Source: Nitrospirota bacterium
GTDB taxonomy: Bacteria; Nitrospirota; UBA9217
Assembly (NCBI GenBank): GCA_963740085.1
Contig: CAVUCU010000004.1
Coordinates: 706,011 to 770,010 of the forward strand
Direction: 5' to 3'
Length of the DNA: 64,000 bases
Made by a program: the position numbers and the translations under genes. Below the pieces are notes generated by a model. That model ran no database searches. It saw only the letters and a program-made list of their open reading frames with translations, and was not told the origin of the DNA. Shown in pieces: positions 5,842 through 59,062 of the stretch. Each line of letters begins with the position of its first letter. Within the stretch, counting starts at the first letter, position 1.

Positions 5842-6977
5842 GTCGCAAGCAAATCCCTGACGACTGCTGCGGCCCGCGCTGACGCGCCGGCATCTCCAAG
5901 CCGCTTCCGCACACCATCGAGACCCGAGCGGATCCGATCATAATAGACAGGATCGATCAGCATCCTGGCAACGGCATCGGCCATGTGCTGCGGCGTCGAT
6001 TCCTTCTGGATCAGCTCGGGAACCAGCCGTTCGTCCGCTACGATATTCACCAGGCCTACATGTTTCAATCCGGCATGCACCAGCCTTCTGAGGATAGCGT
6101 ATGTTATGGCCGATATGCGATACACGATCACCATCGGTATCGCCATAAGACCTGTTTCAAGTGTGGCCGTACCGGAGGCGACGATCGCGGCGTCCGATGC
6201 CCGCAACGCGTCGTATACCCTCCCCTCGATCACTCGGACAGGGACACCGCTCTGCTCCATGAACGTGCGTACGAAGCCCTGGTCCAGCGTCGGTGCAACG
6301 GGAAGAATGAACTGCAGGTCCTGAAACCGGGTCGAGAGTATTTTTGCGGCAGCAAGCATGTCGGGAAGGAGATGCGTCAGTTCCGATCTTCTGCTGCCCG
6401 GCAGCAGAGCGATGGTGCGCCGGGATCCCTCAAGGCCGAACGCGCTCTTCGCCTGTTCCTTCGTAAGGTCCGATCGCACTACGTCCGTGAGCGGATGGCC
6501 CACAAACCGGACGTCAACGCCCGCCTTCTCGTAGAGCGGCACTTCGAAGGGAAATACGACGATCATTGCCTTTACCAGCCGTGCGATCGTCTTGATCCTG
6601 CCTTTTCTCCAGACCCACACCTGGGGGCTTATGTAATAGAGAACCGGGATGCCGAGCCTTTGGGCCGCCTTGCCGAGCATGATATTAAAGTCAGGGAAAT
6701 CGATCAGGACGAGGAGGTCGGGCCGCTCGTTCTTCAGAAAACGTTTCAAGGCTGAATAGACCCGGTAGATCGCGCCGAGATGGGTCAGCACCTCGGTGAT
6801 CCCGACGACCGAGATCTCCTTTGCGTCGGCAAGCATCCGGACGCCGGCCCCCTGCATCTGCTTGCTGCCGACGCCGTAAATAACCATCCCGGGGTCCTGC
6901 TTCCAGATCTCCCGTGCGAGGTTTGCGCCATGCAGATCGCCGGATGCCTCCCCCGACATGATCATGATCTTCTTCAT
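5838..6977 (-). CDS. lpxB: Lipid-A-disaccharide synthase
   Basis: GEASGD, IDFPDFN, SPQVWVW, FVGHPL, LLPGSR and SGTATLE motifs. Confidence 0.95.
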   Translation of the reverse strand: MKKIMIMSGEASGDLHGANLAREIWKQDPGMVIYGVGSKQMQGAGVRMLADAKEISVVGITEVLTHLGAIYRVYSALKRFLKNERPDLLVLIDFPDFNIMLGKAAQRLGIPVLYYISPQVWVWRKGRIKTIARLVKAMIVVFPFEVPLYEKAGVDVRFVGHPLTDVVRSDLTKEQAKSAFGLEGSRRTIALLPGSRRSELTHLLPDMLAAAKILSTRFQDLQFILPVAPTLDQGFVRTFMEQSGVPVRVIEGRVYDALRASDAAIVASGTATLETGLMAIPMVIVYRISAITYAILRRLVHAGLKHVGLVNIVADERLVPELIQKESTPQHMADAVARMLIDPVYYDRIRSGLDGVRKRLGDAGASARAAAVVRDLLAT

Positions 6978-7018
6978 ACCGTTCTTCTGATTTCTGTCTC
7001 CTGACCACTGACCCGGTT

Positions 7019-8119
7019 CTACAGCGCCTTTTTCACAGCGTCAGCCACTTTTTTGATCTGCTCCTCCGTCAGTTCGGGATACAGGGGAAGCGATAACACC
7101 TCGCGCGCAGCCTGCTCGGCGACGGGCAGGCTCCCGGGCTTCATGCCAAGGTCCCTGTATGCGGCCTGCATATGCAGCGGAACGGGATAATAGATCATGG
7201 ATGAGGTTATCCTCCCCGCATCCAGCTTCTGCTTCACCGCATCCCGGTTCTTGACCCTGACCGTGTACTGGTGAAAGACATGCCGTGTCCCGCCCAGTTC
7301 CGACGGTGTCCGGATCCCCGAGTCGGCGAGGTCTTTTGAATAAAGCGCGGCATTGTTCCTTCGCATGGTGTTGTACGCATCGATATGCTTGAACTTGATC
7401 CGGATGATCGCGGCCTGGATCTCATCGAGCCGGCTGTTAAACCCGACCTCTTCGTGGTAATATCGCACCGCGCTGCCGTGGTTCCTCAGGCTCAGCAGAT
7501 GCTCTGCAAAAGCACTATCATCGGTGGTCACCATGCCGCCGTCGCCATACCCGCCGAGATTCTTGCTCGGGAAAAAGCTGAAGCAGCCGAGATCACCGAT
7601 GGCGCCGGTCTTCTTTCCCCGGTATTCCGCTCCAAAGGACTGCGCGCAGTCCTCGATGATCCTGAGATTGTGCTTCTTTGCGAGCCCCATAAGCGCATTC
7701 ATGTCCGCGGGCTGTCCGTAAAGATGCACCGGGATTACGGCCTTTGTTTTTCCGGTGATCGCAGGCCCGATCTTTGAAATATCGATGTTGAACGAATCAG
7801 GATCGATGTCCACGAAGACCGGCACCGCGCCGGCATAGGATATCGCCTCGGCCGTTGCGATGAAGGTGAAGGGCGTGGTGATCACCTCATCACCCCGTTT
7901 GATCCCAGCGGCAAGCAGCGCAAGATGCAGGGCATCCGTGCCGGAAGCAACAGCCACGGCATGTTTCACACCGTGATAGCGCGCGATCTCCTCTTCAAGC
8001 GCCTTGCCCTGCGGGCCAAGGATAAAATGGCCGCTCTGTATTACGCCGAGAACAGCGTTGTTGATCTCGTCCTTGATCGCTTCGTACTGGACCTTGAGGT
8101 CGACCATCGGTATCGTCAT
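7019..8119 (-). CDS. gnnB: DegT/DnrJ/EryC1/StrS PLP aminotransferase; GnnB-like (UDP-GlcNAc3N synthesis)
   Basis: SGTDAL, VHLYGQ, IEDCAQ, SFFPSKNLG; lies between lpxA/lpxI and lpxB. Confidence 0.75.
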   Translation of the reverse strand: MTIPMVDLKVQYEAIKDEINNAVLGVIQSGHFILGPQGKALEEEIARYHGVKHAVAVASGTDALHLALLAAGIKRGDEVITTPFTFIATAEAISYAGAVPVFVDIDPDSFNIDISKIGPAITGKTKAVIPVHLYGQPADMNALMGLAKKHNLRIIEDCAQSFGAEYRGKKTGAIGDLGCFSFFPSKNLGGYGDGGMVTTDDSAFAEHLLSLRNHGSAVRYYHEEVGFNSRLDEIQAAIIRIKFKHIDAYNTMRRNNAALYSKDLADSGIRTPSELGGTRHVFHQYTVRVKNRDAVKQKLDAGRITSSMIYYPVPLHMQAAYRDLGMKPGSLPVAEQAAREVLSLPLYPELTEEQIKKVADAVKKAL

Positions 8120-11196: not shown

Positions 11197-12219
11197 CTAT
11201 TTTCCCTTCTCTTTCAATTCGTTTATCTGTTTCTCCAACGCAGCCACAAGCTTTTTCAACTCGGGCAACTTCGGCAGCACCGACTGAACCTTGAGCCAGT
11301 CTCTCTGCGGCATTGCGTAGGTTCCCCCTACCACCTGAGCAGGTTCAATGTCTTTAATGATGCCTGACTGGGATGATGCCATGACGCGATCGCCGATTAT
11401 CACGTGATCGGCAACGCCTACTTGTCCTCCCAAAACAACCCAGTTGCCGATCGTGCAGCTCCCGGCAATTCCAACTTGTGCGATAAGAATGCAGTGCTCG
11501 CCAAGCGTCACATTGTGGGCGATTTGCACGAGGTTATCGATCTTGGTTCCCTGCTTGACGATGGTGTTGCCGAGGGAAGCGCGGTCAATAGTACTGTTGG
11601 CGCCGATCTCCACATCGTCTTCTATGATCACACCGCCCACCTGCGGTATCTTGTGGTGTCGACCGCCGTCGGTCACGAACCCGAAGCCGTCTCTGCCGAG
11701 CACTGCCCCGGGATAGACGATCACCCTCTTGCCGATCCGTACGTTCTCGCCGATGCTCACATGCTCATGAATGACGGCATCATCATCGACAACCGAACCT
11801 CTGCCGATCGAGGCCCCGGGGCGCACCGTGACACGGTCTCCGATCTTCACATCATCAGCCAGAACAGCAAAGGGATAAATAGAGGGGTCTGCACCGATAA
11901 CAACGTTCGCGCCGATCGCAGCTTTCTCGCTGATGCCGCTCGCCTGGTAGGGTTTGACATAAAACAGCGCGAGGACCTGCGCGAATGCAAGCCGGGGATT
12001 TTTAAGCCGGAGCAGCGGCAGATGCATCGCGGGCGTGTCGAGCGGGACCAGGGCTGCTGAAGCCCGTGACTGTTCAAGGTCCTTGAAATGATTTTTCCCG
12101 TCGATGAAAGTGATCTGCCCTTCTCCCGCTTCATGGATACCGGCCGCACCGCGGATATCGAGTTCAGCGGGTCCGATCAGTTCCGCGCCAAGCTTGTCTG
12201 CCAGTTCTTTAAGCTTCAT
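11197..12219 (-). CDS. lpxD: UDP-3-O-(3-hydroxyacyl)glucosamine N-acyltransferase
   Basis: Hexapeptide repeats, [21 protein letters not shown]. Confidence 0.95.
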
Positions 12220-12927: not shown

Positions 12928-15267
12928 CTAAAAGAGCGTCCCGATGGAAAATTCAAACTTACTTGGCTGATCCTCAGGCCTCTTTTTCACGATGTTTCCC
13001 CATTCGAACCTGAGGGGCCCGATGGGAGAAAGCCACCAGAATCCCCATCCGTAGGTCTGTCGAAGTTCGGAAAACTTCACGGTCTCGTAATTATCGAATG
13101 CCTTCCCGATGTCATAGAAGATCACTCCTTTGAGCCGCGCAGCCGGGACGATCGGGAACGTATACTCGATGTTGTAAATGAGTTCCCTGTTTCCACCCCA
13201 GAGGTTCAAGGCTGCGTCCGTGGGACCGGCGGTGCCGAATCGAAAACCACGAAGCGTGGTAGGGCCGCCGACAAAGAAGCGCTCCCCCAGGGGAACGGGT
13301 TTGTCGATGAGGGATTCTACATACCCGGCCCTGCCGCGCACCATGAAGACGGTGTCCCAGAACACCGGGAAATACCACGCCGAATCGACCGCGGTCTTGA
13401 CAAAATTCGGGTCGCCGCCGAGCGGTCCGCCGGCATATTCCACGAAGACGCTGTTCCGGGACCCTGTTTTCGGATCGAGATAGTAGTCCCGCGAATCCCG
13501 TGAAATGCTCCAGGTAAGCGCATTCGTGCTGATCCGATCGCCGTAGATATCGAGCTGCCTCTGGAGGGCGAATGCCGGTATCGTATTTATGTCCGTCACC
13601 AGCGAGTTGTCGTAGCTGAATCTGAGCGAGGTCGATACATATTCGCCGAAACTCTTGCCCGCCGAAAGGGCAAAACCGTTTGTCTTGAGCCAATAGCCGT
13701 TGTAATCTTGTGACTGCTTATAGATGTCGACCTTGCCCCAGAGCGGTTGGTCAAACAGATACGGTTCCATGAAGGTGAGCATAAAAAGCTGGCTTACCGA
13801 GCCCCACTGGGTCTTGAATTTGAGGAGTTGGCCCCGGCCGCCGAGGTTGCCCTGCGTAACTTCTGCGATGGCCATCAGTTTGTCCACCGAGCTGTAACCG
13901 CCGCCGATGCTGAACGTGCCGGTGAGCTTCTCCTTCACCTTGACGTTCAAATCCATGACCGATTCCTGCTTCCGGCGTTCCGGCACGATATCTACGGTCT
14001 CGAAAAAATTGAGGTTGTTGATCCGTTCGTAGCTTCTTTTAAGAGCCTTTTTGCTGTAGAGGTCCCCTTCGTCAAGCCGCATCTCCCGACGTATCACCTT
14101 GTCGCGGGTCTTGCTATTGCCCGTGATGTCTATTCTTCCGATCTTGACCTCGCCGCCTTCCTGGATTTCTATCTGAATGGCAACGGTCCTTTTGTCCTGG
14201 TCTATGTTGAACTGCGGGATGACGTTCGCGAATGGCCTCGCGATGCTGTCGTAGCGGTCCATGATCCTGCCGACGTCCTGACGGAGCATCTCTCTGTTGA
14301 AAACATCGCCTTTTGCAAGCTTGATCTCTTTCGACAGCTCCGCATCGGAGATAAGCGTATTCCCCTTCACCGTGATGGAGCCCACCCGGAACTGTTCGCC
14401 TTCTTTGATATTGATGCGTATGACAAGCTCGCTCTTCCTGGTAAACTTTTTGAGTGGACCCCAGAAATAGCATTCACGAAAGGTGTATATCTCCGGCTCG
14501 ATGACAGGTTCGTCCACCACGACCTGGATGTAGCCTTTGTTGTAGTAGAGGTTCCTGATTGTCTCCAGATCATCCTTGAGCTCTTCCGTCCTCAGCGTGC
14601 CGCTGCGGTCGAGGAATGAAAAGATCCAGCGTTCCCGGTTCTTGAGGGCCGCCTTGATCTCCTTCGAGGAGATTGCCTTGTTGCCGGTAATGATGACTTC
14701 CTCTAATCGTACCTTTTCCCCCTCCTCAATGTGAAAGACAACATTCCTGTCGCCGCTGCGAAGTTCGGTGACGACGGGCACCACGACAGCGTCGTAGAAC
14801 CCATCATCCTGGTACTTGAGCCGTATTTTCTCCGCGTTGTCATTGATAAGCTGCACGTTGAAGGCGGTACGGGGAAGCAGGGTCAGGATTTCTTTCAGCT
14901 TTTCCGTCGTCAGTTCATTGTTTCCCTCGAAGGTAATTTCACGAATGAGCGGCTTTTCCTTGACGACGAAGATGACCTTGAGCCCGTTTTCAAAACCCTC
15001 GGTCCTTACCTGCACGTCCTCAAAATGTCCGAGCTGGTACAGCGCCTTGACGTCTTCCCGGATCATTGCCGGTGAAAAGACGTCACCTTCTTTTGTTTTG
15101 ATCTTGGCAAGGATCGTTGAGGTCTCTATTCTCTTGTTGCCCTTTACTTCGACCAGGGTCACCTTCGTATCATCTGCCGCACTGAAACCAGCAAAAACAG
15201 ACAGGATCAGGAGTGTCAGCACCCCGATGGCGGCACCGCATTTGCTCACGATTATAACTTCCTCCAT
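12928..15267 (-). CDS. bamA: Outer membrane protein assembly factor
   Basis: POTRA repeats (GN.RI, KTRDKVIRRE), LRGF motif, C-terminal FEFSIGTLF. Confidence 0.95.
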   Translation of the reverse strand: MEEVIIVSKCGAAIGVLTLLILSVFAGFSAADDTKVTLVEVKGNKRIETSTILAKIKTKEGDVFSPAMIREDVKALYQLGHFEDVQVRTEGFENGLKVIFVVKEKPLIREITFEGNNELTTEKLKEILTLLPRTAFNVQLINDNAEKIRLKYQDDGFYDAVVVPVVTELRSGDRNVVFHIEEGEKVRLEEVIITGNKAISSKEIKAALKNRERWIFSFLDRSGTLRTEELKDDLETIRNLYYNKGYIQVVVDEPVIEPEIYTFRECYFWGPLKKFTRKSELVIRINIKEGEQFRVGSITVKGNTLISDAELSKEIKLAKGDVFNREMLRQDVGRIMDRYDSIARPFANVIPQFNIDQDKRTVAIQIEIQEGGEVKIGRIDITGNSKTRDKVIRREMRLDEGDLYSKKALKRSYERINNLNFFETVDIVPERRKQESVMDLNVKVKEKLTGTFSIGGGYSSVDKLMAIAEVTQGNLGGRGQLLKFKTQWGSVSQLFMLTFMEPYLFDQPLWGKVDIYKQSQDYNGYWLKTNGFALSAGKSFGEYVSTSLRFSYDNSLVTDINTIPAFALQRQLDIYGDRISTNALTWSISRDSRDYYLDPKTGSRNSVFVEYAGGPLGGDPNFVKTAVDSAWYFPVFWDTVFMVRGRAGYVESLIDKPVPLGERFFVGGPTTLRGFRFGTAGPTDAALNLWGGNRELIYNIEYTFPIVPAARLKGVIFYDIGKAFDNYETVKFSELRQTYGWGFWWLSPIGPLRFEWGNIVKKRPEDQPSKFEFSIGTLF

Positions 15268-26864: not shown

Positions 26865-27158
26865 TCTGCCGTTCCCCTGCGACGGGCAGCTCTGACACAA
26901 GAGACACGCATAGCAATGCTGCACAGATCATAGTTACAGGAACAAGACAAGGCAGACACACGCCCTGCACTCGCGACGTAGCACTCGTAAACGCTGGGTG
27001 CAGGCGGCCGGGCCCTGTTTTAAAGGGCGAGGGTGGAGTGACGCGAGTCCCGCATATCAGGGTGGAGGTACGGTACCTCTTCCCGTCATGCAAAGCCAAC
27101 CTCGAATGCTTCTATCGGGGGTGGCCGAATGATGAGCTGCCCAAAATAATCAATGCAC
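26865..27158 (+). ncRNA. Putative structured ncRNA/dispersed element, type A, full copy A1
   Basis: Near-identical to 28748-29000 and rc(56184-56448); GGGCAGCTC(26884)/GAGCTGCCC(27134) pairing with CTGA/ATGATGA K-turn; several hairpins. Confidence 0.65.
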
Positions 27159-27272
27159 CTCGTTCGTCTCCCTCGTCCGTCATTGCAAATGCCGCCCCCC
27201 TCACGGTTGACGGCTGGGACAAAAGCGGATAGACTAAGTAACAGAAGCGACGTGTTTTAATGGGAGGGTCTC

Positions 27273-28727
27273 ATGCATACGGGTTGTTTCATCGGCATTG
27301 ATCAGGGGAGCAGCGCTACCAAGGCCATGGCCATCAGCACCGAAGGACAGGTGCTCTTCCAGGTCCGGAAGGACCTTGCGCCGCCTTTTCGGGACGGGAA
27401 CCGCATCGAGCATGATGCACAAGAGATCCTCCGGTCGATCTCCGATGCCCTGAACGAATCCATTCAGGCAGTCCAGGACTCCGGCGTTCGGGTCCTGGGC
27501 GTCGGGTTCTCATGCCAACGCTCCTCCTGCCTCGCCTGGAACGGATCAACAGGGGCCCCTCTCACACCGGTGATCAGCTGGCGCGATACCCGGGGGAGCG
27601 AACTCATCGAGACCCTCAGGGACCGGGGGCCGGAGATCCTTCGAAGGTCCGGCCTTCCACTCACGCCCTACTATTCCGCCTCGAAGCTGCGATGGATCAG
27701 GGACACCTTGGCAGCCGCAGGACAGACGGACGCGGTATACGGGACGCTCAGCAGTTTTCTGGTCCGGCATCTCACCGGGAACACAACGGACGCGATCGAT
27801 CACACCCATGCCGCCCGCACCCAGCTCATGAACATCAAAACGATTTCGTGGGACGAGGAGCTGATCGGGATCTTCGGTCTTACCGACATCACACTTCCGA
27901 GGATCGTACCCTCGGCGCGCGCCTTCGGGAACGCGCACAGCCCGGCGGGAGATGTCCCCCTGCTCGCCTGTCTCGGCGACCAGCAGGCGGCCATGATCGG
28001 GCTCGGTGTTTTCGAAAAGGGTGACGCGGGGATCAATCTCGGGACAGGCGGATTTCTGATGCTGAACACCGGCGCCGGACTCGTACCTGCCGAAGGACTC
28101 ATGGCATCCGTGCAGTATTCAGATGAAAAAGGACTGCATTATCTGCTCGAAGGAAGCGTGAACGCCGTTGGCGACGCCCTCGAATGGACAAGGACGAACC
28201 TCGGCCTCTTCAAAGAGTACGAGGAGATGGACGACCTCTGCTGGAAGGCCGCGACCGACACCATAGCATTCATCGGCCTGAACGGCACCGGCTCGCCGCA
28301 CTGGGAAACGAACATCTCGAGCGCTTTCCACGGTCTGGGGCCGGAGAGCACCTCGGCGGACATGGTGCGCGCCGTTGTGGAGGGCATCGTATTCTTCATC
28401 AAGGACATCGCCGAGGAGGTCCGCAAGAATGGGATCGAACCCGGGAAATTCGTACTCGCCGGAGGACTGTCCACCCTCACCTATCTCAGCCAGGTACTGG
28501 CCGATATCCTCAAAACGGACGTCCGCGTCAGCGCCGGCAGGGAGGCCTCGGCCCTGGGCGCTGCATTTCTGGCAGGCATTCAACACGGTGCGTGGAAGGC
28601 CGATGACATCAGGAGAATGGCGGCGCAGGGCGAGGTGGTGCACGGCGAGGCGAACCCCGGACTTGAAAGACGATATAAAAAGTGGAAGGAACTGCACCGG
28701 ATGACAAGACAGATCGACAGGATGTGA
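27273..28727 (+). CDS. FGGY family carbohydrate kinase (glycerol kinase-like)
   Basis: IGIDQGSSATK, QRSS, ISWRDTR, YYSASKL, ARTQL, GDQQAA, GTGGF. Confidence 0.88.
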   Translation: MHTGCFIGIDQGSSATKAMAISTEGQVLFQVRKDLAPPFRDGNRIEHDAQEILRSISDALNESIQAVQDSGVRVLGVGFSCQRSSCLAWNGSTGAPLTPVISWRDTRGSELIETLRDRGPEILRRSGLPLTPYYSASKLRWIRDTLAAAGQTDAVYGTLSSFLVRHLTGNTTDAIDHTHAARTQLMNIKTISWDEELIGIFGLTDITLPRIVPSARAFGNAHSPAGDVPLLACLGDQQAAMIGLGVFEKGDAGINLGTGGFLMLNTGAGLVPAEGLMASVQYSDEKGLHYLLEGSVNAVGDALEWTRTNLGLFKEYEEMDDLCWKAATDTIAFIGLNGTGSPHWETNISSAFHGLGPESTSADMVRAVVEGIVFFIKDIAEEVRKNGIEPGKFVLAGGLSTLTYLSQVLADILKTDVRVSAGREASALGAAFLAGIQHGAWKADDIRRMAAQGEVVHGEANPGLERRYKKWKELHRMTRQIDRM

Positions 28728-28747
28728 TCAGCCGGTGCTGTTTTTGA

Positions 28748-29000
28748 TCTTGCCTTTTCCCTGCGCCGGGCAGCTCTGACGCGAAAGACGCGCATAGCAA
28801 TGCTCCACAGATCCTCGTTACGAGAACAAGACAAGGCAGACACGCCCTGCACTCGCGACGTAGCACTCGTAAACGCCGGGTGCAGGCGGCCGAGCCAGGC
28901 TTCCCGGGCGAGGGTGGAGTGATGCGAGTCCTGCATATCAGGGAAGAGATACTGTACCTGTCCGCCATGCTGCGCGGCCGCGTGATGAGCTGCCCAAAAA
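28748..29000 (+). ncRNA. Putative structured ncRNA/dispersed element, type A, full copy A2
   Basis: Direct repeat of A1; GGGCAGCTC(28768)/GAGCTGCCC(28987); CGCGCA(28789)/TGCGCG(28971). Confidence 0.65.
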
Positions 29001-29073
29001 GAACACCAACTCACTGAGTTTAAGCTGGGAGGTAAATCGAACAACCCAAATAAACGCGTGAAGGTCCTCTTCT

Positions 29074-36487: not shown

Positions 36488-36567
36488 CGCGTCAGAGCTG
36501 TCCGTCGCATGGGGAAGGCAAGATCAAAAATGCTTTACCCCCACCCTGCGCGTCCGCGGAGCGGCCC
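36488..36567. repeat. Truncated head-to-head A(-)/C(+) junction of the dispersed element family
   Basis: cgcgtcagagctgtccgtcgca..ggcaaga = rc of A 5' end; tcaaaaatgctttaccc...ggagcggcc matches 52821-52862. Confidence 0.7.
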
Positions 36568-36577
36568 TTTCGCCTTG

Positions 36578-48238: not shown

Positions 48239-48355
48239 TGTCTGCCTTATGATACTGCGGCGTTGTTCTCATTTCAAGAGCGGAATGCCAGAGGCAAACA
48301 GTTCTGCCGTTCCCCTGCGCCGGGTAGCTCTGACGCGAGAGACACGCATAGCAAT
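48239..48355. repeat. Truncated type A 5' end (+, 48303-48355) head-to-head with a degenerate B-like remnant (-)
   Basis: tctgccgttcccctgcgccgggtagctctgacgcgagagacacgcatagcaat; minus strand reads tttgcct...cattcc...aaggcagaca. Confidence 0.7.
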
Positions 48356-48446
48356 CAGGATGATAATTGGCAAATGGCAATAAAGAAGGCCGGATGATCA
48401 AAGGAGAACTTCAAAATAAGACCCGACCCTGCGATGTTTCGGAGAA

Positions 48447-49034
48447 CTACTCTATATCGGCGAAATCCCTTCTGACCGTTTCAATATTCTCACGGTATCC
48501 TGCCCCGTCCCCAAAATCGAGGAATTTAACATAACGATGATGCAGGGTCGTCATTTTGCGTGCATGTCTTATGGGGCACCAGTACTGCTCGGTCCTTCCC
48601 GCGATCTCCTGCGTATATGCGATCAAGCCGTTCACGTAGGCGCAGTACTGGCAGTTCACCTTCTCGATGATGTTCAGGTACAGCAAGGCATGGCGGTCAA
48701 AAATAATGAAGCCCTCGCGCTTCACTTTGGGGATCCCATAGATCGGGAAACAGATCGCCTGGAACAGGGTCATCATGAGGTCAAAAAGGAGTGCTGCGGG
48801 CAACACGGACCAGATGATCGGCGCGCTCAGGATCACCGGCCAGGTCGAACTGCGGATGAAAGGGATAATCTTCGCGACAAGGGCCTTCTGCTCGTGATGG
48901 ATCCATTCCTCGAAGGTGACCTTCTTGCCGAATACCTTATAGTAATACTCATCTTCCTTTTTCTGGATCTCCAGCGCGATCTCCTTCTCCAGTTCTTTCA
49001 TCCTCGCGACCAATATATGCAGCCTGCTTTCCAT
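48447..49034 (-). CDS. Hypothetical membrane protein (NCxYCxY...EQYWCPI motif)
   Basis: AAGGAG RBS; Cys motif; hydrophobic segment. Confidence 0.75.
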   Translation of the reverse strand: MESRLHILVARMKELEKEIALEIQKKEDEYYYKVFGKKVTFEEWIHHEQKALVAKIIPFIRSSTWPVILSAPIIWSVLPAALLFDLMMTLFQAICFPIYGIPKVKREGFIIFDRHALLYLNIIEKVNCQYCAYVNGLIAYTQEIAGRTEQYWCPIRHARKMTTLHHRYVKFLDFGDGAGYRENIETVRRDFADIE

Positions 49035-49305
49035 AAAATCAGCTCCTTACTTATTCTGTGTTGGAGAATGTTCCGGCAGCTGTTCCAGTCCTGGTCGCTC
49101 TTGAAGACTCTCTTCTTATCATTGCGCGGCCGAGTGACGAGCTGCTAAAAAAGGATAGATGCACATGGAACGGGTTGCCAACCTGGATAAGCTTCTGCAA
49201 ACAGATAATTCATGAAGATGAAGAAAGCGATACTCGCAATTAAGGGACCCCATGAAACCTGCCCCTGAGCGCCGACAAGTGGAATACAAAAAACCTTATT
49301 TTTTT

Positions 49306-51625: not shown

Positions 51626-51680
51626 GCATGCCTCCTTGTTGAACAATGTTAGGGTCAGGCGTTCACTCGCACCGAATTAC

Positions 51681-51760
51681 TGATCGTTGGGTAATGCATC
51701 TCCAGGTGAGCAGCTCTCTGCTGTTAAGTATGGCCGTATCTCTGTGCTGCATCCATGAGA
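51681..51760 (-). mobile_element. Decayed fragment of a transposase-like C-terminal HTH (copy 1)
   Basis: Translates LMDAAQRYGHT*QQRAAHLEMHYPTI; near-repeat of 54546-54625. Confidence 0.5.
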
Positions 51761-51772
51761 GGCGCTCTCTTT

Positions 51773-52615
51773 TTACTGCAGCACCACGTAATCTGCGTCG
51801 TGGAGCGAAACTGAACCCCGCTCGATCTGTCCGGGGACCACAGGCAGAACAACTTTGTACGTAATGGATGACTGCCGGGCAACCTGTTCCGGAATGCCCC
51901 GCTTCCAGGCATGGCCCACTCCGGAGAGCACGATCATGGTTCTGCCGGGGTGCTTCTTGCGATATTCGATCAGCTTCCAGGCCATGCTCTTATCCCATAC
52001 CATCTGCGCCTCGCAGAAGTTCAGGAACCGCCTGTCTACCTGTCGCGAGTGGCCCGCATAAGCTTTTCTGATAAATTGCATGTACGTCGGGTCGATGTCG
52101 CAGCTGATCCCCGGTGGAAGTTTTTGTTTCTGCTCCGCCTTCAACGAAATAAAGCCGCTCTGTGCAACATCTTTGACGATATCATCCGGGATATTGAGCC
52201 CGACGAGCGGTATCCGATGCTCCCGCGCGAAGAGAAAGATGCGGCGGTATGCGGGCCAGGGCTGTTGCCAGTTATCATAGTACGTCGGCAGGAATTGCTC
52301 CAGGGTCGAAGAACCGCTTACCCATGAATTCAGGTCTTTTTGGCTATCGGACCTGAACATCTCCATGCCAATGGAGAGAGGCCTGCCCGATCCGCGAAAC
52401 GACCTGATGATCCTGAGTTCCAGGTCGTGGTGCGCCTGTTCATCATGTACTTCCCCGACGAAAACGACGTCGGCATTCCTGATCTCCCGGATCATGCCGT
52501 TGAAAGAAATAACGGCGCCGTCGCGTACGCGCAGGATATCGCCGGCGGCGCATACACGGGAGAAGCAGGCGAAGACCAGAATAGCGGTTGCCAGGATGAA
52601 AGTTCTTGATCTCAT
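51773..52615 (-). CDS. ChaN family (DUF399) heme/iron-associated exported protein
   Basis: Signal peptide, FVGEVHD...HH, GMEMF, AQ.VWD..MA, GVGH..RGIP. Confidence 0.8.
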   Translation of the reverse strand: MRSRTFILATAILVFACFSRVCAAGDILRVRDGAVISFNGMIREIRNADVVFVGEVHDEQAHHDLELRIIRSFRGSGRPLSIGMEMFRSDSQKDLNSWVSGSSTLEQFLPTYYDNWQQPWPAYRRIFLFAREHRIPLVGLNIPDDIVKDVAQSGFISLKAEQKQKLPPGISCDIDPTYMQFIRKAYAGHSRQVDRRFLNFCEAQMVWDKSMAWKLIEYRKKHPGRTMIVLSGVGHAWKRGIPEQVARQSSITYKVVLPVVPGQIERGSVSLHDADYVVLQ

Positions 52616-52749
52616 ATCATGATTTTTGCGCGAACTGCCGCCAAAGTCAAGGGCAACATGAAATATCATGTCATCGACCATCTTCTGCGCATTATTGATC
52701 AGAGGGCAAGGGGGTAGGTTGACAAGAGGAAATCACAGTTAGAAACAGC

Positions 52750-52819
52750 GTAACTATGATGTGCAGCATTGCTATGCGTGTCTCTCGCCTCAGAGCTACC
52801 CGGCGCAGGAAACGGCAGA
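52750..52819 (-). repeat. Truncated type A element (5' about 70 nt)
   Basis: rc = tctgccgtttcctgcgccgggtagctctgaggcgagagacacgcatagcaatgctgcacatcatagttac. Confidence 0.75.
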
Positions 52820-52820
52820 A

Positions 52821-53046
52821 TCAAAAAGCTTTACCCCGACCCCGCACGTCCCCGGAGCGGCCATTACACCCTGCACCCGAGGTTCCGCTCGTAATCCCTG
52901 CGCGCAGGCGATATTTTGGGCACCCGTCCTGGCCTAAGGAAGCGTCCCCTTGGGGCGAACGCGAAGTACTGCCTGCACCAGCGTTATCGCAAGAGCACGG
53001 TGTCTGAGGCCATAGGCCGGGTTTACGCGGGCGGGCGGTCCGCCCC
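52821..53046 (+). ncRNA. Putative structured element type C, head-to-head with A
   Basis: Shares ccctgcac..ctcgtaa..gcaggcg hairpin with A and hairpin-GGGCGA..AGT.CTGC core with A/B; 5' end recurs at 36524. Confidence 0.5.
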
Positions 53047-54491: not shown

Positions 54492-54545
54492 GTAAAAACC
54501 TCTCTTTGTTATTTTGGTGTCAGTCCATTCCTCGCCCGGGACCGC

Positions 54546-54653
54546 TGATCGCTGGGTAATGCACATCCAGGTGAGCAGCTGTCTGCTGTTGAGTATAGCC
54601 GTATTTCTGAACTACATCAATGATCTTTTTGTCTCCAACAAGGGGAATGTCAA
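54546..54653 (-). mobile_element. Decayed fragment of a transposase-like C-terminal HTH (copy 2)
   Basis: Translates GDKKIIDVVQKYGYTQQQTAAHLDVHYPAIS; 54620-54653 recurs at 60825-60858. Confidence 0.55.
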
Positions 54654-54814: not shown

Positions 54815-55900
54815 CTATACATTGAACCTGAAATTGATGATATCCCCGTCCTTTACTTCGTAGGTCTTTCCCTCGAGCTTGAAATGCCCTTTTTCCCGTG
54901 CCGCATGCGTACTACCGGCGGCGATAAAGTCATCATAGGAAACGACCTCAGCCCGGATAAAACCTCTCTCGATATCCGAATGGATCCTGCCTGCCGCCTG
55001 CTGCGCGTTCATGCCCTTTTCTATGGTCCAGGCCCTGACCTCGTCCTCACCGGAGGTCAAAAAAGAGATCAGCCCGAGCAGGTCATACGAAACACGGATC
55101 AGCTTGTTCAGCGCGGGTTCCTGAATCCCGAGGTCGTCAAGGAACACCTTCGCCTCCCCGGGAGAAAGCTGGGCTATCTCCATCTCGATCTTCCCGCACA
55201 TGCTGAGCACCTTCACCTGCCGTCCCTTGAAAAATGCCTGAAGATCAGAGACCGTCTTGCCTGTTGCTTCTGAATTCATTTCCTGTTCAGCAACGTTCAG
55301 CACAATGACCTCCGGCCTGATGGACATGAACTGCAGATGGCGCATGGCCTTCCGGTCCTCCCCGGAAAAATCCGCGTCCCGAAGCGGCTTCTCGGATTCC
55401 AAGACCTCCTTGCATTTCTGCAAAAGCTTTCGCTCGCCCTCATCAGGCTTCTTTCCCCTCTTCAGACCCAGTTCCATCCTCTCCAGCCTTTTCTCAACAA
55501 GTTCAAGATCGCCGAAGATCATCTCCAGCTCGATCGTCTGCGCATCTCTGAGCGGGTCAACGCTGCCGATCGGATGGGACACTGCTTCGTTCTCGAAAGC
55601 CCGCACCACGTGGACAATGGCGTCCACGTCCTTGACCAGGTCGAACACCTTCCTGTTCTGCTCCATGTCTCCCTTGGTCAGCCCGATATAATCGACATAC
55701 TCGACCGTTGCATAGGTGGTCTTCTTCGGCTTGTATATCTCCGAAAGCCTGTCGACCCTGATGTCCGGCACCTTCACCACGCCGTGATGAGGTTCCGCCG
55801 TCACGGTCGCATAGACCGTCGTCTCCAGATTCAGACCCGTCAGGGCATTAAATATCGTTGTCTTGCCTGAATTCGCAAGGCCGGTAATCGCCGTCTTCAT
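54815..55900 (-). CDS. ychF: YchF/Obg-family ATPase (DUF933/TGS C-terminus)
   Basis: GLANSGKT, VPD.R, EVRAWT, IHSDIERGFIRAEV, LEGK.Y.V.DGD..FRFNV. Confidence 0.88.
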   Translation of the reverse strand: MKTAITGLANSGKTTIFNALTGLNLETTVYATVTAEPHHGVVKVPDIRVDRLSEIYKPKKTTYATVEYVDYIGLTKGDMEQNRKVFDLVKDVDAIVHVVRAFENEAVSHPIGSVDPLRDAQTIELEMIFGDLELVEKRLERMELGLKRGKKPDEGERKLLQKCKEVLESEKPLRDADFSGEDRKAMRHLQFMSIRPEVIVLNVAEQEMNSEATGKTVSDLQAFFKGRQVKVLSMCGKIEMEIAQLSPGEAKVFLDDLGIQEPALNKLIRVSYDLLGLISFLTSGEDEVRAWTIEKGMNAQQAAGRIHSDIERGFIRAEVVSYDDFIAAGSTHAAREKGHFKLEGKTYEVKDGDIINFRFNV

Positions 55901-56183
55901 TTTATTCTCCTTCTTGATTAATCCCTGATGTCAGGATCCAACCACACCCTGCACTCGTTTATGGCCGCGTTTTTCGTTCTTTGCGGTGAACGCTTTGATA
56001 AGAAGGTGGTCCTTATAACAAATCGAATGATATATTTACCGCGGAGTCGCGGAGAATTATTGTTTCATAATAAAACCGGTTCTTCTGACTTTTCTGTGGG
56101 CCATTTAATTGCATGTATCGCTTTTTATTCTTCATGAACAATCTGTTTCCCGAATGTTATCTAAGTTGGCGCTTGTCCCAGGT

Positions 56184-56448
56184 GTGCATTGATTTTTTTG
56201 GGCAGCTCATCACTCGGCCACGCAGCATGCCGGGAAGAGGTACAGTATCTCCACCCTGATATGCAGGATTCGCATCACTCCACCCTCGCCCTTCAAAATG
56301 GGCTCGGCCGCCTGCACCCAGCGTTTACGAGTGCTACGTCGCGAGTGCAGGGCGTGTCTGCCTTGTCTTGTTCTGGCAACTATGATCAGTGCAGCATTGC
56401 TCTGCGTGTCTTTCGCGTCAGAGCTGCCCGGCGCAGGGGAACGGCAGA
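56184..56448 (-). ncRNA. Putative structured ncRNA/dispersed element, type A, full copy A3
   Basis: Reverse complement of A1/A2; compensatory CACGCA/TGCGTG versus CGCGCA/TGCGCG in A2. Confidence 0.65.
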
Positions 56449-56452
56449 ACTC

Positions 56453-56680
56453 TTTGCCTTTCCAGAAGCCCCTGCATTCCATGAACAGGTTCGCGCACAA
56501 GCATGCGCATGCTGACACGATCAAAAAAAGCACAAAGCCAGGCAGACACGTCCGAGCCCGTTCCCCCGGGCGAGGGGAAGTGCTGCGAGATGCTCGAAAG
56601 GCTTGTTATCAGTACCGGCAATCATGCCCTGCGCGAAGCTGTGAACTGGGGTGCAGAATAAAACAGGATCGTGACATGTG
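56453..56680 (+). ncRNA. Putative structured element type B, copy B1
   Basis: Repeat of 58754-58978; CTGCATTCCA(56472)/TGGGGTGCAG(56647) pairing; shares GGCAGACACG, CCGAGCC-hairpin-GGGCGAGGG, GTACC and CATGC..TGCGCG with A. Confidence 0.6.
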
Positions 56681-56774
56681 CTGAACCAGAAACAGATAAA
56701 AGCGACCCACACAAAACCCGGAAGACCGATAAAACTTTGAAGTATTGGTTTTAACAAACAAGAAAGTCAGCTTT

Positions 56775-56805
56775 TCTCTGCGTCCTCTGCGTTCTCTGCG
56801 GTGAA
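56775..56805. repeat. CTCTGCG 9-mer tandem REP-like repeat
   Basis: tctctgcgtcctctgcgttctctgcggtgaa; related motifs near 26819, 33500, 43430, 50681 and 56037. Confidence 0.55.
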
Positions 56806-56983
56806 TAACGATCACGCAGCTATTGTATTCTCAGTCGGATACATTTTCAACTTGAATTGTTCAATAGTCCGGCCGACGCCGTGGCGGCGTCAGCGGTGAG
56901 GAGAATCTGAAAGGATTCCCGTGGAGGGACCCCGGTTTTCGCTGCGCAAAGGATGCGACAACGTTCTCCTCAGGCGCCCTTGA

Positions 56984-57430
56984 TCATGCTGCTTTACGCT
57001 CCTCCGCCTGGAGAATATAGCTCCGGAAGTCTCTTTCAATATTTCTGATGAATCTCTCGCGACGCTCCGTATAATGGACCGTCTTGACCCTCATGTAAAT
57101 CCTGTAGTCGACGTAGAAGTACAGCTCGAAGCTGCCCGCCCCGAGCCCTGCCAGTAAAAAGTTGTTCTTGAGCCGCATCAATTCAGGCGTGACCCCAAAA
57201 TCCATAGTAAAAAGGGCGACGACGAACATTATCAGTGCAACAAGGATCACGTAAAAATTCCTGAAAAACCGCCTCTCCAGCTCAGAATACTCGACAGCTT
57301 CCACATGATCGAACATTTTGCCCGCTTTGGCCTTGAACGTTTCCCAATCACTTATCCGTGCGAGGTAAATAAGGGCCTTCCGGTAGTTTTCCACATCCTG
57401 ATTGAATTGTTTTTCCAGTCCCCTTTTCAT
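56984..57430 (-). CDS. Hypothetical membrane protein (2 TM)
   Basis: AAGGAGG RBS; 148 aa ORF. Confidence 0.7.
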   Translation of the reverse strand: MKRGLEKQFNQDVENYRKALIYLARISDWETFKAKAGKMFDHVEAVEYSELERRFFRNFYVILVALIMFVVALFTMDFGVTPELMRLKNNFLLAGLGAGSFELYFYVDYRIYMRVKTVHYTERRERFIRNIERDFRSYILQAEERKAA

Positions 57431-57759: not shown

Positions 57760-58608
57760 CTATAGGTTTCCTGAAGAGCTTCTTTCCAGGGCAGCCGGAA
57801 CGACAAGAACGATATCAGCAAGGCCTTTGCAAGCATCGTCAAACCCGGGCGTGTCCCTGCTGACCGAAGAGATGGTCCGGACCGCGATCTCCGGATCATA
57901 CTGTTTGAGATACCAGCAGATCCCACCGTAGTTCTTTGAATGATAATCACCGTTATAATGAAGGAACAGCTCCTTCGGACCGCGGTTCTTCAGGATAAAG
58001 TATGCCATGGTGGCGTCCTTGACCGCCTGTGCGGCGACGAAGTTCTGCGCGTCCATATGCGCGCCATGGGCCATGCCGATCTCCATGACCTTCCGGTACC
58101 CCGGGGCTGAAAGATCCAGCGGAATGGGAAGCGGAGCGATCGATCTCTTCGCCTCATCGGACAGACGTTCGAGCGCCTCCATTCCCTCCCGGGCCACGAG
58201 GCCGGCATAGCGCCTTGGGACATTGGTCGCGATGAACCGAAGTCCGTGCTCTTTGGCAACATCAACGAGCGGACGATAATCGCTGTCGTAATTGTCCCAG
58301 ACCCTGGCCTCCCGCGCCAGGTTCTCATGCTCGATGAGTCCCGCCAGATATTCATCCACGATCAGCTGGTTGTCCGCCTCCAGCATTTCCGCGCCCAGCA
58401 CCAGATCGCCCTTCTTGATCCCGACAAGGTCCCGCGTCAATTCCAGCTGCAGCCGGTGGACCAGCGGGTGATCGTGGATCTCGCCGAAGAGGATGACGTC
58501 GGCCCGGACGCAGCGGTCCAGCATTTCCCGGTACCGGATCTCCTTCCCTCCCCCGTCATAGAGGAGATACAACGGCTTGTTGTCCGGAATTGTCCTGCGA
58601 TGTCGCAT
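57760..58608 (-). CDS. ChaN family (DUF399) protein, no evident signal peptide
   Basis: LFGEIHD...H.LQ, GAEM.E, WDNY..DY.PL, ATNVPR, AQAVKDATMA, NGDYHS. Confidence 0.8.
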   Translation of the reverse strand: MRHRRTIPDNKPLYLLYDGGGKEIRYREMLDRCVRADVILFGEIHDHPLVHRLQLELTRDLVGIKKGDLVLGAEMLEADNQLIVDEYLAGLIEHENLAREARVWDNYDSDYRPLVDVAKEHGLRFIATNVPRRYAGLVAREGMEALERLSDEAKRSIAPLPIPLDLSAPGYRKVMEIGMAHGAHMDAQNFVAAQAVKDATMAYFILKNRGPKELFLHYNGDYHSKNYGGICWYLKQYDPEIAVRTISSVSRDTPGFDDACKGLADIVLVVPAALERSSSGNL

Positions 58609-58707: not shown

Positions 58708-58749
58708 CGTGTCTCGCGTCAGAGCTGCCCGGCGCAGGGGTAAAGCAGA
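58708..58749 (-). repeat. Truncated type A element (5' about 42 nt)
   Basis: rc = tctgctttacccctgcgccgggcagctctgacgcgagacacg. Confidence 0.75.
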
Positions 58750-58753
58750 AATC

Positions 58754-58978
58754 TTTGCTTTTCCAGAAGCCCCTGCATCCCATGAACAGGTCCGCGCACA
58801 GCATGCCAATCTAGAAAAGACCGAAGATGCCACAAAGCCAGGCAAACACGACCGAGCCTGTTCCCCCGGGCGAGGGAAAGTGCTGCGATGATCGAAAGGC
58901 TTTGTTATCAGTACCGGCAATCATGCTCTGCGCGGTGTTGTGAACTGGGGTGCAGAAAATAAAAAGATCGTTACCTGT
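58754..58978 (+). ncRNA. Putative structured element type B, copy B2
   Basis: Repeat of B1 with compensatory changes (CCGCGCA/TGCGCGG versus TCGCGCA/TGCGCGA). Confidence 0.6.
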
Positions 58979-59062
58979 AATGAATTAGAAATAAAGACAT
59001 GGCAATTCAGTGCGTTGGCCAGGAGAAGATGAAGTGAAAGCTCAATCATAAATATAACGTTC

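What the first reader, a model, noticed from the sequence alone, without database searches (positions are those of the whole stretch)
56184..56680. Head-to-head pairing of related elements on opposite strands (A/B and A/C)
Seen at five loci: the 5' end of A abuts the 5' end of a related element on the other strand with about 1-4 nt between. Loci: A3/B1 (56448|56453), A/B2 (58749|58754), A/C (52819|52821), A/C fragment (36523|36524) and A/B-like remnant (48298|48303). A2 also keeps the first bases of the C junction (rc tcaaaaa). The A/B junction is itself an imperfect palindrome that co-varies: GGCAGA-actc-TTTGCC versus AGCAGA-aatc-TTTGCT. Decayed copies keep this junction and lose the distal parts. 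Inference: there is no room for an intervening promoter, so either each element holds the promoter for its partner (a bidirectional/ambisense two-RNA module), or the junction is the origin or joined ends of one mobile unit, as in REPIN-like or HUH/rolling-circle elements or a retro-copied ambisense RNA. This is the best candidate for an undescribed system in the window.
Basis: partly seen in the sequence, partly recalled or inferred. Interest (0 to 1): 0.88.

Follow-up and report, generated by a model that had tools for sequence, protein, structure and literature searches.

The report
Two-armed ISL3-type miniature transposon family
The head-to-head "pairs" are the two inner halves of one small non-autonomous transposon that has spread through these uncultured Nitrospirota genomes; each half carries a conserved, folded module of about 200-290 bases whose own function is still unknown.

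Summary
A and B are distant homologues on opposite strands (nhmmer cross-hits near 1e-30). In the window's genome 13 of 15 long B copies abut the 5' end of an A.

The pair is one mobile unit, not two neighbouring genes. The intact window copy (56078-56728) ends in about 27-bp terminal inverted repeats. These resemble the ends of autonomous ISL3-family transposase elements in related genomes. Of 22 such units, 13 are flanked by a perfect 8-bp AT-rich target duplication, against 1.9% (at 7 of 8 or better) in mismatched-flank controls.

There are at least four paralogous arm types (A, B, C, D). They always combine heterotypically: 83 non-redundant pairs, none homotypic.

Each arm holds a module with a long closing stem, inner helices with compensatory changes and a 3' A-run. 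It folds better on the outward-reading strand. Modules also occur alone and in tandem arrays.

No promoter motif, Rfam match or RNA data were found. An IS110-family element exists, but as an insertion into a C arm.

Verdict: a new variant of a known kind (MITE) with an unusual, possibly functional, structured payload.

The parts
56070..56077 (.). left copy of the target-site duplication (ataaaacc)
   Evidence: 7 of 8 bases repeated at 56729-56736.
56078..56104 (+). left terminal inverted repeat, 'A-type' (begins GGTTCTTCTGAC)
   Evidence: Metagenome contigs of other copies leave the window sequence exactly at 56078 (table 7).
56193..56449 (-). A module, read on the - strand from 56449. It has a 5' leader, the closing stem GGGCAGCTC/GAGCTGCCC, inner helices and an A-run (T-run 56193-56199 on the + strand).
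   Evidence: nhmmer. RNAalifold on 30 A modules: -102.1 on the given strand against -92.6 on the reverse complement.
56306..56353 (.). optional REP-like hairpin module nested in the A module
   Evidence: Present in 3 of 12 aligned units. The most widespread piece in other genera. Stands alone between genes in G013. Contigs that skip 56293-56353 appear, table 5.
56450..56450 (.). junction: one base between the two 5' leaders
56451..56664 (+). B module. It has a 5' leader (56451-56471), a closing stem (56472-56497 with 56631-56656), inner helices P2 and P3, and an A-rich run (56657-56664).
   Evidence: Alignment A1 and pair counts. Strand asymmetry.
56665..56728 (-). linker and right terminal inverted repeat, 'B-type' (GGTCTTCCGGGTTTTGTGTGGGTC on the - strand, 56702-56728)
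   Evidence: Loose ends at 56727/56732.
56729..56736 (.). right copy of the target-site duplication (ataaaact)
58709..58998 (.). decayed unit: first 44 nt of A (-) | B module (+, model positions 1-249), both terminal repeats lost
52750..53039 (.). decayed unit: first 74 nt of A (-) | C module (+), both terminal repeats lost. Bases 52934-52935 (CT) are the empty target of the IS110-family element.
36494..36577 (.). remnant of an A|C junction: about 30 nt of A's 5' end, then about 55 nt of C's 5' end
48283..48372 (.). remnant: about 15-20 nt resembling B's 5' leader (-) | the first 76 model positions of A (+). The rest of A (model 200-348) follows at 49108-49255 after about 735 nt of other sequence.
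26865..27159 (+). A module alone (model 2-258, with the REP-like insert), no terminal repeat, upstream of an FGGY kinase gene
28750..29005 (+). A module alone (model 3-251), preceded by the first bases of a C leader (rc tcaaaaa), just downstream of the same FGGY gene

Best explanation
A/B, A/C and, elsewhere, C/B, D/B and D/C are the two inner halves of one non-autonomous transposon (a MITE) of the ISL3 type.

Its layout is: left terminal repeat, linker, module pointing left | module pointing right, linker, right terminal repeat.

The whole 500-680-bp unit is moved by an ISL3-family DDE transposase supplied in trans. It lands in AT-rich DNA and duplicates 8 bp. That the unit has transposed as a whole is shown. 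That the enzyme is ISL3 is inferred from the likeness of the ends and the length of the duplication.

The two modules are diverged paralogues drawn from at least four types (A-D). Each is a 200-290-nt cassette with a short 5' leader, a closing stem of about 23 bp that pairs its two ends, inner helices and a 3' A-run. Only unlike types are found together. I infer that a long near-perfect palindrome would be unstable.

I also infer the following, none of it shown:
- The modules are a selected payload that folds as single-stranded nucleic acid on the outward-reading strand, most likely as RNA within read-through transcripts.
- The head-to-head design ensures that one module is in the folding sense whichever way the element inserts.
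- Decay proceeds by hairpin-mediated deletions that spare the junction.
For: 1. Multi-copy unit with unrelated flanks.
- blastn gives 37 matches in the genome.
- 12 units align end to end, while their flanks do not.

2. Terminal repeats.
- A regex scan found 25 TIR-like sites in the genome.
- The motif occurs in 28 of 61 genomes of the family; the reversed-pattern control gives 0.

3. Target duplication. Of 22 TIR-bounded units, 13 have 8/8 and 15 have at least 7/8 identical flanking bases. Mismatched left/right flanks reach that level in 1.9% of 462 pairs.

4. ISL3 link.
- PF01610 genes occur in 10 of 26 related genomes.
- They are bounded by very similar repeats with the same left/right asymmetry (L128, L129, L130, L132). 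L128 has a perfect 8-bp duplication.

5. Boundaries. Contigs of other copies in soil metagenomes diverge from the window at 56078 and 56727/56732, and depth is 5-15 times higher over the unit.

6. Arms are homologous. A fourth type, D, was found. The census gives 83 non-redundant head-to-head pairs (AB 30, BD 22, BC 19, AC 8, CD 3, AD 1) and none homotypic.

7. Structure of the B module, on 37 sequences from several genera.
- 94.4% of cells are paired.
- 10 of 36 pairs changed on both sides, a count reached in 0 of 500 shuffles.
- Slid controls reach at most 46% paired.

8. Strand preference.
- G.T cells 78 against A.C cells 22.
- Alifold energy -93.5 against -82.6 for B, and -102.1 against -92.6 for A.

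9. Modules stay 75-80% identical between genera, while linkers and terminal repeats differ.
Against: - No ISL3 transposase gene was found in the window's own genome, which is 98.5% complete.
- The same-genus ISL3 copy examined (L127) shows no matching repeats.
- No empty site was found. Flanking genes of other species did not align at DNA level, and no metagenome contig bridges the site. Mobility therefore rests on target duplications alone.
- Modules also occur without terminal repeats and with sharp boundaries, namely two A modules in the window and tandem D|B arrays in two same-genus genomes. An ordinary MITE model does not predict this.
- Inverted repeats that must match each other can co-vary at the DNA level, so compensatory changes alone do not prove an RNA.
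- No promoter, terminator, Rfam family or RNA read supports transcription.
- The loci used for the census were fetched by likeness to A|B or by a B motif, so B is over-represented.
- Copies made by transposition are not independent. The lack of homotypic pairs rests on perhaps ten independent junction types.
Confidence: 0.72

Rival explanations
1. Divergent two-RNA module. A and B (or C, D) are independent small-RNA genes transcribed outward from a shared central control region. The transposon ends are a later capture.
For: - The folding strand of each arm is the outward-reading one.
- The 5' boundaries of modules are sharp, and the junction outlasts the rest during decay.
- Modules occur without terminal repeats and in arrays.
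- Modules are better conserved across genera than linkers and terminal repeats.
Against: - No sigma-70-like motif lies in the unit.
- The sequence upstream of B differs completely between the A|B, C|B and D|B contexts. The only shared motif, the partner's G-rich stem strand, lies at variable distance, 31-44 nt by my count on the and sequences.
- There is no terminator-like end; the modules end in an A-run, not a U-run.
- No Rfam match.
Confidence: 0.12
2. The modules are themselves mobile cassettes that move as single strands or through RNA (HUH/Y1-type, REPIN-like or retro-copied). They prefer to land 5'-end to 5'-end. The ISL3 ends merely carry some of them.
For: - Module-only copies start at the leader and end just after the A-run.
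- A 3' A-run and a stem pairing both ends recall retro-copies and hairpin-recognised elements.
- Short fillers at junctions are made of two facing 5' ends of a third type.
- Four Y1_Tnp genes exist in the genome.
Against: - No RT and no TnpB in the genome.
- The Y1 genes are not next to any module and share no repeats with them.
- The bases just upstream of the leaders show no conserved target motif.
- The A-run has a fixed length.
- Fillers and module-only copies can also arise by hairpin-mediated deletion.
Confidence: 0.08
3. Neutral relic. The arms are only long sub-terminal inverted repeats of a fold-back MITE, with no selected function. The apparent structure reflects the history of arm duplication and the need for both ends to bind the same transposase.
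For: - MITE transcripts generally form stable stem-loops (review PMC10969869, passages seen).
- Copies are related by transposition, so shuffling controls overstate support (the caveat stated in the output).
Against: - The stems lie within one arm, not between arms.
- Compensatory changes are seen in three separate helices across genera.
- Wobble pairs are biased to one strand.
- Modules are better conserved than the terminal repeats, the reverse of what a neutral interior predicts.
- Autonomous ISL3 elements in relatives have no such arms: they measure 1378-1385 bp between repeats, and no A-D profile hit falls in L127-L132.
Confidence: 0.08

Closest known systems
ISL3-family insertion sequences and MITEs derived from IS elements
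   Same: - Terminal inverted repeats of about 25 bp that resemble those bounding PF01610 transposase genes in related genomes.
- An 8-bp duplication of AT-rich target. A preference of the ISL3 member IS31831 for A/T-rich regions is stated in PMC1590026 (passage seen).
- No transposase of its own, many dispersed intergenic copies, and decay of the direct repeats with age, as the MITE review describes (PMC10969869, passages seen).
   Different: - The interior is not a remnant of the transposase gene. It is two facing paralogous structured modules drawn from four types and always unlike.
- The modules are more conserved between genera than the ends.
- The modules also live outside the transposon, alone and in arrays.
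BOX elements of Streptococcus pneumoniae and other modular intergenic repeats (Correia/NEMIS, ERIC, RUP)
   Same: Modular build from a few box types, strong predicted folding, intergenic location and presumed mobilisation in trans. The review passage seen mentions BOX and SPRITE elements; the rest is recalled.
   Different: - The modules here are far larger (200-290 nt against tens of nt).
- They are arranged head-to-head rather than in series.
- They are bounded by ISL3-type repeats with 8-bp duplications.
- No sequence likeness was tested or is claimed.
REPINs (REP doublets moved by RAYT Y1 transposases)
   Same: - Two related units in inverted orientation forming one mobile unit.
- A nested 50-nt hairpin here looks like a REP and stands alone in another genus.
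   Different: - REPINs are about 100 nt and lack terminal inverted repeats and 8-bp duplications (recalled).
- Here the Y1 genes are not associated with the elements.
IS110/IS1111-family elements that insert into repeated sequences
   Same: A 1553-bp element encoding a DEDD_Tnp_IS110 + Transposase_20 protein sits at one precise site of a C module. It is flanked by CT on both sides, and the window holds the empty site. Targeting of repeats by this family is recalled knowledge.
   Different: It is a guest in one arm, not the engine of the A/B/C pairs. The other three IS110-family genes of the genome lie elsewhere.

Membership tests
MITE of the ISL3 type | Terminal inverted repeats like those of the autonomous family | tested here: met
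   - Unit ends are GGTTCTTCTGAC... and GGGTCTTCCGGGTTTTGTGTGGGTC.
- PF01610 genes in L128, L129, L130 and L132 are bounded by closely similar repeats, including the same left/right difference.
MITE of the ISL3 type | Target-site duplication of the family's length (8 bp) | tested here: met
   - 13 of 22 units have 8/8 and 15 of 22 have at least 7/8; the control gives 1.9% of 462.
- Autonomous L128 has 8/8.
- That 8 bp is the ISL3 norm is recalled, and is consistent with L128 and L132 here.
MITE of the ISL3 type | Small, no transposase gene, many dispersed copies with unrelated flanks | tested here: met
   - Units are 500-680 bp.
- Indels between copies break every frame.
- 12 full units plus fragments lie in one genome with unrelated flanks.
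MITE of the ISL3 type | Cognate autonomous element in the same genome | tested here: not met
   - No PF01610 match in the own genome.
- Present in 3 of 8 same-genus genomes, but the one examined (L127) lacks matching repeats.
- The best matches are in another genus of the family (L129) and in another family (L128).
MITE of the ISL3 type | Shown mobility (filled versus empty site, or assay) | tested here: inconclusive
   - Flanks did not align in other species.
- Metagenome contigs are short and none bridges an empty site.
Structured non-coding RNA family | Conserved secondary structure with compensatory changes | tested here: met
   - 94.4% paired; 10 pairs changed on both sides; 0 of 500 shuffles reach this; slid controls reach at most 46% paired.
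- Caveat: the sequences are related copies.
Structured non-coding RNA family | Membership of a described family | tested here: not met
   - No Rfam 15 match at gathering score in the whole window.
- Only chance-level hits at E up to 10 in 55900-57000.
Structured non-coding RNA family | Evidence of a transcript with defined ends | not testable with these tools
   - No RNA run holds the sequence.
- No promoter-like or terminator-like signal fits the module ends.
REPIN / RAYT system | Association with a Y1 (RAYT) transposase gene flanked by the repeats | tested here: not met
   - Four Y1_Tnp matches in the genome.
- No A-C profile hit, even at E up to 1, within about 2 kb of them, and no shared repeats.
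IS110-family element (bridge-RNA type) | The DEDD recombinase gene lies inside the repeated unit as its own engine | tested here: not met
   - Only 1 of about 14 units holds such a gene.
- Comparison with the window's C module shows it is a discrete 1553-bp insertion.

The most novel reading that the evidence does not exclude
The A-D modules are a previously undescribed class of structured RNA (or single-strand DNA) of about 200-290 nt that is the selected payload of this transposon family. Under this reading:
- The modules are conserved across genera more strongly than the transposon ends.
- They are carried in unlike head-to-head pairs, so that any passing transcript or replication fork exposes one module in the folding sense.
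- They can persist or amplify without the transposon, as single copies and as tandem D|B arrays.

A bolder form is that the modules are mobile cassettes in their own right.
Probability: 0.3. Interest if true: 0.7.

Novelty: new variant of a known kind. Interest (0 to 1): 0.45.

Why it matters
It turns a puzzling "ambisense pair" into a defined element with ends, a target duplication and a candidate enzyme. Annotation of these uncultured soil Nitrospirota can therefore mask or label it.

It also gives a clear case in which the interior of a bacterial MITE is better conserved than its ends. That interior is not random filler. It is a pair of folded modules with compensatory changes.

If the modules prove functional, this would be a new RNA class spread by a transposon, and an example of an orientation-proof design. 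The strict avoidance of like-with-like pairs may also offer a natural read-out of how long a palindrome these bacteria tolerate.

Tried and rejected
- Rfam: nothing at gathering score in the window. Only two chance-level hits at E up to 10 around the finding.
- Protein coding in B and in the array spacer: rejected. The conserved ATG/GTG is followed by indels, and 1-nt indels between array copies break both candidate frames.
- Cis-regulatory leader: rejected. The genes downstream of B modules are heterogeneous.
- Sigma-54 and sigma-70 readings of the junction, checked by eye: the spacing is off by one for sigma-54 and is absent in other contexts. The scan tool found no sigma-70-like site inside the unit.
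- Link to RT, TnpB or Y1 enzymes: no RT or TnpB, and the Y1 genes are not associated.
- Genes around the arrays in two same-genus genomes are ordinary, with no mobile-element enzymes.
- Empty-site search with 2.6 kb of the window in the genus: only element copies matched, not the flanks.
- Same-genus autonomous ISL3 copy: no matching terminal repeats found.
- The widespread GATCTTCCGGG... repeat variant turned out to belong to D|C MITEs, not to an autonomous element.
- Plasmid collection: no match.
- Viral contigs: one 18-mer hit that no profile confirms, so chance.
- Sequencing runs: no RNA holder listed.
- Reads laid were DNA contigs only. Parts without cover and the lack of a bridging contig say nothing.
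- I did not build a covariance model and did not run protein searches of the large databases. Neither was needed for the question.
- Supplementary files of papers were not consulted.

Full report
**What is there**

Window 56078-56728 is one copy of a repeat of about 650 bp. blastn of 56150-56700 against the window's own 3.46-Mb genome gave 37 matches, about a dozen of them full length. A MAFFT alignment of 12 units with 150-nt flanks shows sharp edges. Likeness starts at GGTTCTTCTGAC... on the left and stops at ...CCCGGAAGACC on the right, and the flanks are unrelated. So this is not a segmental duplication.

Profile searches (nhmmer, two rounds) gave these counts in the genome:
- 16 A copies above 200 bits.
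- 15 B copies above 150 bits.
- The A profile hits B arms in inverted orientation at E about 1e-30, so the two arms are distant homologues.
- 13 of the 15 B copies have the 5' end of an A beside their own 5' end: ten with a 1-2 nt gap and three with a filler of 62-73 nt.
- Of the 16 A copies, 11 face a B, 3 face a C, and 2 face nothing or only a few bases of C.

**The pair is one transposon**

The two outer ends of the unit are imperfect inverted repeats of about 27 bp.

I took every pair of such repeats 350-2500 bp apart in the window and in all fetched loci. That gave 22 units, including two autonomous elements and one false pairing of two neighbours. I then compared the 8 bases outside each end:
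- 13 of 22 are identical 8/8.
- 15 of 22 match at least 7/8.
- Mismatched left and right flanks reach that level in 1.9% of 462 pairs.

The duplicated octamers differ from copy to copy and are AT-rich. For the window copy the flanks are ataaaacc and ataaaact.

Soil-metagenome contigs of other copies leave the window sequence exactly at 56078 and at 56727/56732. Summed depth is 5-15 times higher over the unit than beside it.

**Which enzyme**

The genome has no ISL3 transposase (PF01610), no reverse transcriptase and no TnpB. PF01610 genes are present in 10 of 26 related genomes, including 3 of 8 of the same genus.

Four of the six fetched ISL3 loci show bounding repeats very like those of the unit. 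For example, GGCGCTTCCGGGTTTTGTGTGGGTCC appears in L128 and GGGGTCTTCCGGGTTTAGTGTGGGTCC in L129. They also show the same difference between a 'TCTTC(C/T)GAC' end and a 'TCTTCCGGG' end. L128 has a perfect 8-bp duplication.

The repeat motif occurs in 28 of 61 genomes of the family, and the reversed pattern in none. I therefore read the unit as a MITE of the ISL3 type. The same-genus ISL3 copy that I looked at has no matching ends, so the actual helper is not identified.

**Who carries it**

A B-module 18-mer found dozens of contigs whose public titles read 'MAG: Nitrospirota bacterium'. Single hits in other phyla are at the level expected by chance for an 18-mer in 596 Gb.

With the whole unit as query, 21 of 41 related genomes matched. 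That breaks down as 19 of 24 in the same family and 1 of 16 in other families of the phylum, the latter at E 5e-4. Nothing was found in the plasmid collection, and nothing real in viral contigs.

**Anatomy of an arm**

Read from the junction outward, each arm has the following parts.
- A leader of 10-25 nt.
- A long stem that pairs the start and the end of the module. In B this is CTGCATCCCATGAACAGGTTCGCGCA with TGCGCGGACCTGTGAACTGGGGTGCAG.
- An inner helix P2 (GCAGACAC with GTGCTGC) that encloses either a short hairpin P3 or a longer alternative module.
- A run of 6-8 A.
- About 70 nt of linker and terminal repeat.

On 37 non-redundant B modules from several genera I wrote four helices by hand (36 pairs) and counted them:
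- 94.4% of cells form standard pairs.
- 10 pairs show changes on both sides. No shuffle of 500 reaches this.
- Sliding the partner by 1-3 columns drops pairing to 23-46%.

The clearest case is column 13/209, with A-U in 21 sequences and G-C in 16. The sequences are related copies, so these counts overstate independence.

The fold prefers the outward-reading strand:
- G.T cells number 78 against 22 A.C cells (41 against 22 without one invariant wobble).
- The consensus energy is -93.5 against -82.6 for B, and -102.1 against -92.6 for A.

A has the same plan: the closing stem GGG(C/T)AGCTC with GAGCTGCCC, then the A-run. C has it too: GCACGTCCCC with GGGGATGTGC, then the A-run (sequences).

**More arm types and a rule**

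A unit in the own genome (C4:499316-499963) pairs C with a fourth type, D. D proved to be the 200-nt 'spacer' of tandem arrays with a period of about 428 nt in two same-genus genomes. Those arrays are therefore repeated D|B units that have lost their terminal repeats. D|C MITEs of about 510 bp occur in two further genomes.

Over the window and all loci, non-redundant head-to-head pairs number 83: AB 30, BD 22, BC 19, AC 8, CD 3 and AD 1. None is homotypic. The loci were chosen by likeness to A|B or by a B motif, and copies are not independent, so the firm statement is only that no like-with-like pair was seen. My inference is that long near-perfect palindromes are not tolerated.

One end of a unit is always of the 'A-type' repeat and the other of the 'B-type', whatever modules lie between. 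So the modules behave as exchangeable cargo between a fixed left and right end.

**The junction**

- A|C has no base between the leaders.
- A|B has one base in 15 of the 30 listed pairs. In about a dozen it has a filler of 62-73 nt that is itself two facing C-type leaders.
- Some C|B pairs carry a 35-nt filler made of two facing A-type leaders.

Sixty modules had no full partner. Many of these keep 10-30 nt of a partner's leader, or a partner reduced to the two strands of its closing stem. This fits deletion across the base of hairpins, which would spare the junction. That is inference.

One variant junction keeps the symmetry and four do not.

**What speaks for and against RNA**

For:
- Compensatory changes in three helices.
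- Strand-biased wobble pairs.
- Modules 75-80% identical between genera, while linkers and repeats differ and flanking genes do not align at all.
- Module-only copies with sharp ends, such as the two A modules that bracket an FGGY kinase gene in the window.

Against:
- No promoter-like site in the unit.
- No shared sequence upstream of a given module in its different contexts.
- An A-run rather than a U-run at the end.
- No Rfam family.
- No RNA run to look at.
- Downstream genes are of all kinds, and neighbours are ordinary housekeeping genes. The modules are therefore not leaders of one gene family.

**Guests**

A 1553-bp element encoding a DEDD_Tnp_IS110 + Transposase_20 protein sits in the C arm of one unit (own genome C1:1497241-1498793). 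It is bounded by inverted GGCTGACAGTT and by CT on both sides. The window's C module is the uninterrupted site, with the CT at 52934-52935.

A hairpin of about 50 nt is present in some A, B, C and D modules, in either orientation. In another genus it stands alone between genes, like a REP sequence.

**Verdict**

Its cause is that the two elements are the halves of one ISL3-type miniature transposon. What remains open, and is the interesting part, is why these transposons carry two unlike copies of a conserved folded module, and whether that module acts as RNA.

Noticed in passing
own genome C1:1497241-1498793 (L142:642-2194); empty site at window 52934-52935: An IS110-family element (395-aa DEDD_Tnp_IS110 + Transposase_20 protein). 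It has an untranslated 3' end of about 340 nt, inverted GGCTGACAGTT near both ends and CT on both sides. It is inserted at one precise site of a C module. Its 3' end holds a stretch resembling the target (GGCCTAGGGAA against GGCCTAAGGAA), as a guide RNA might.
   Followed up: partly
window 56306-56353, 26955-27010, 28845-28895; L017:9673-9724 and 14630-14681: A REP-like hairpin of about 50 nt (CCTGCAC...GTGCAGG) is nested in some modules in either orientation. In another genus it stands alone between genes at about 90% identity, in many copies.
   Followed up: partly
L013:6026-7567, L014:2159-3276 and 6569-7244, L015:8314-9390 and 11298-11969: Tandem arrays (period about 428 nt, 95% matches within an array) of D|B units without terminal repeats, in two same-genus genomes, among ordinary genes.
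   Followed up: partly
window 26865-29005: Two A modules without transposon ends lie in the same orientation just upstream and just downstream of an FGGY-family carbohydrate kinase gene (27273-28727).
   Followed up: no
window 51773-52681 and 57760-58608: Two paralogous ChaN-like haem-binding genes (Cofac_haem_bdg) each have a truncated A|C or A|B junction 70-100 nt upstream of their start. Short direct repeats (51646-51758 with 54511-54623) suggest an old local duplication.
   Followed up: no
window 48373-49107: An A module is split. Model positions 77-199 are replaced by about 735 nt that hold overlapping ORFs of 203 and 195 aa with no Pfam match.
   Followed up: no
window 56040-56055 and 56775-56810; L150, L146, L104 upstream flanks; own genome C1:117317, 378774, 462146: Short tandem heptamer-like repeats (for example cgcggag, tctgcg-type, ggggtca, gggttca, aagtagg) lie beside several units and elsewhere in the genome.
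   Followed up: no
window 56821-56933: A further stretch of about 110 nt, just right of the unit, matches single places in two same-genus genomes at 76-80% (query 1707-1834). It holds the only sigma-70-like site of the region (56850-56822, - strand).
   Followed up: no
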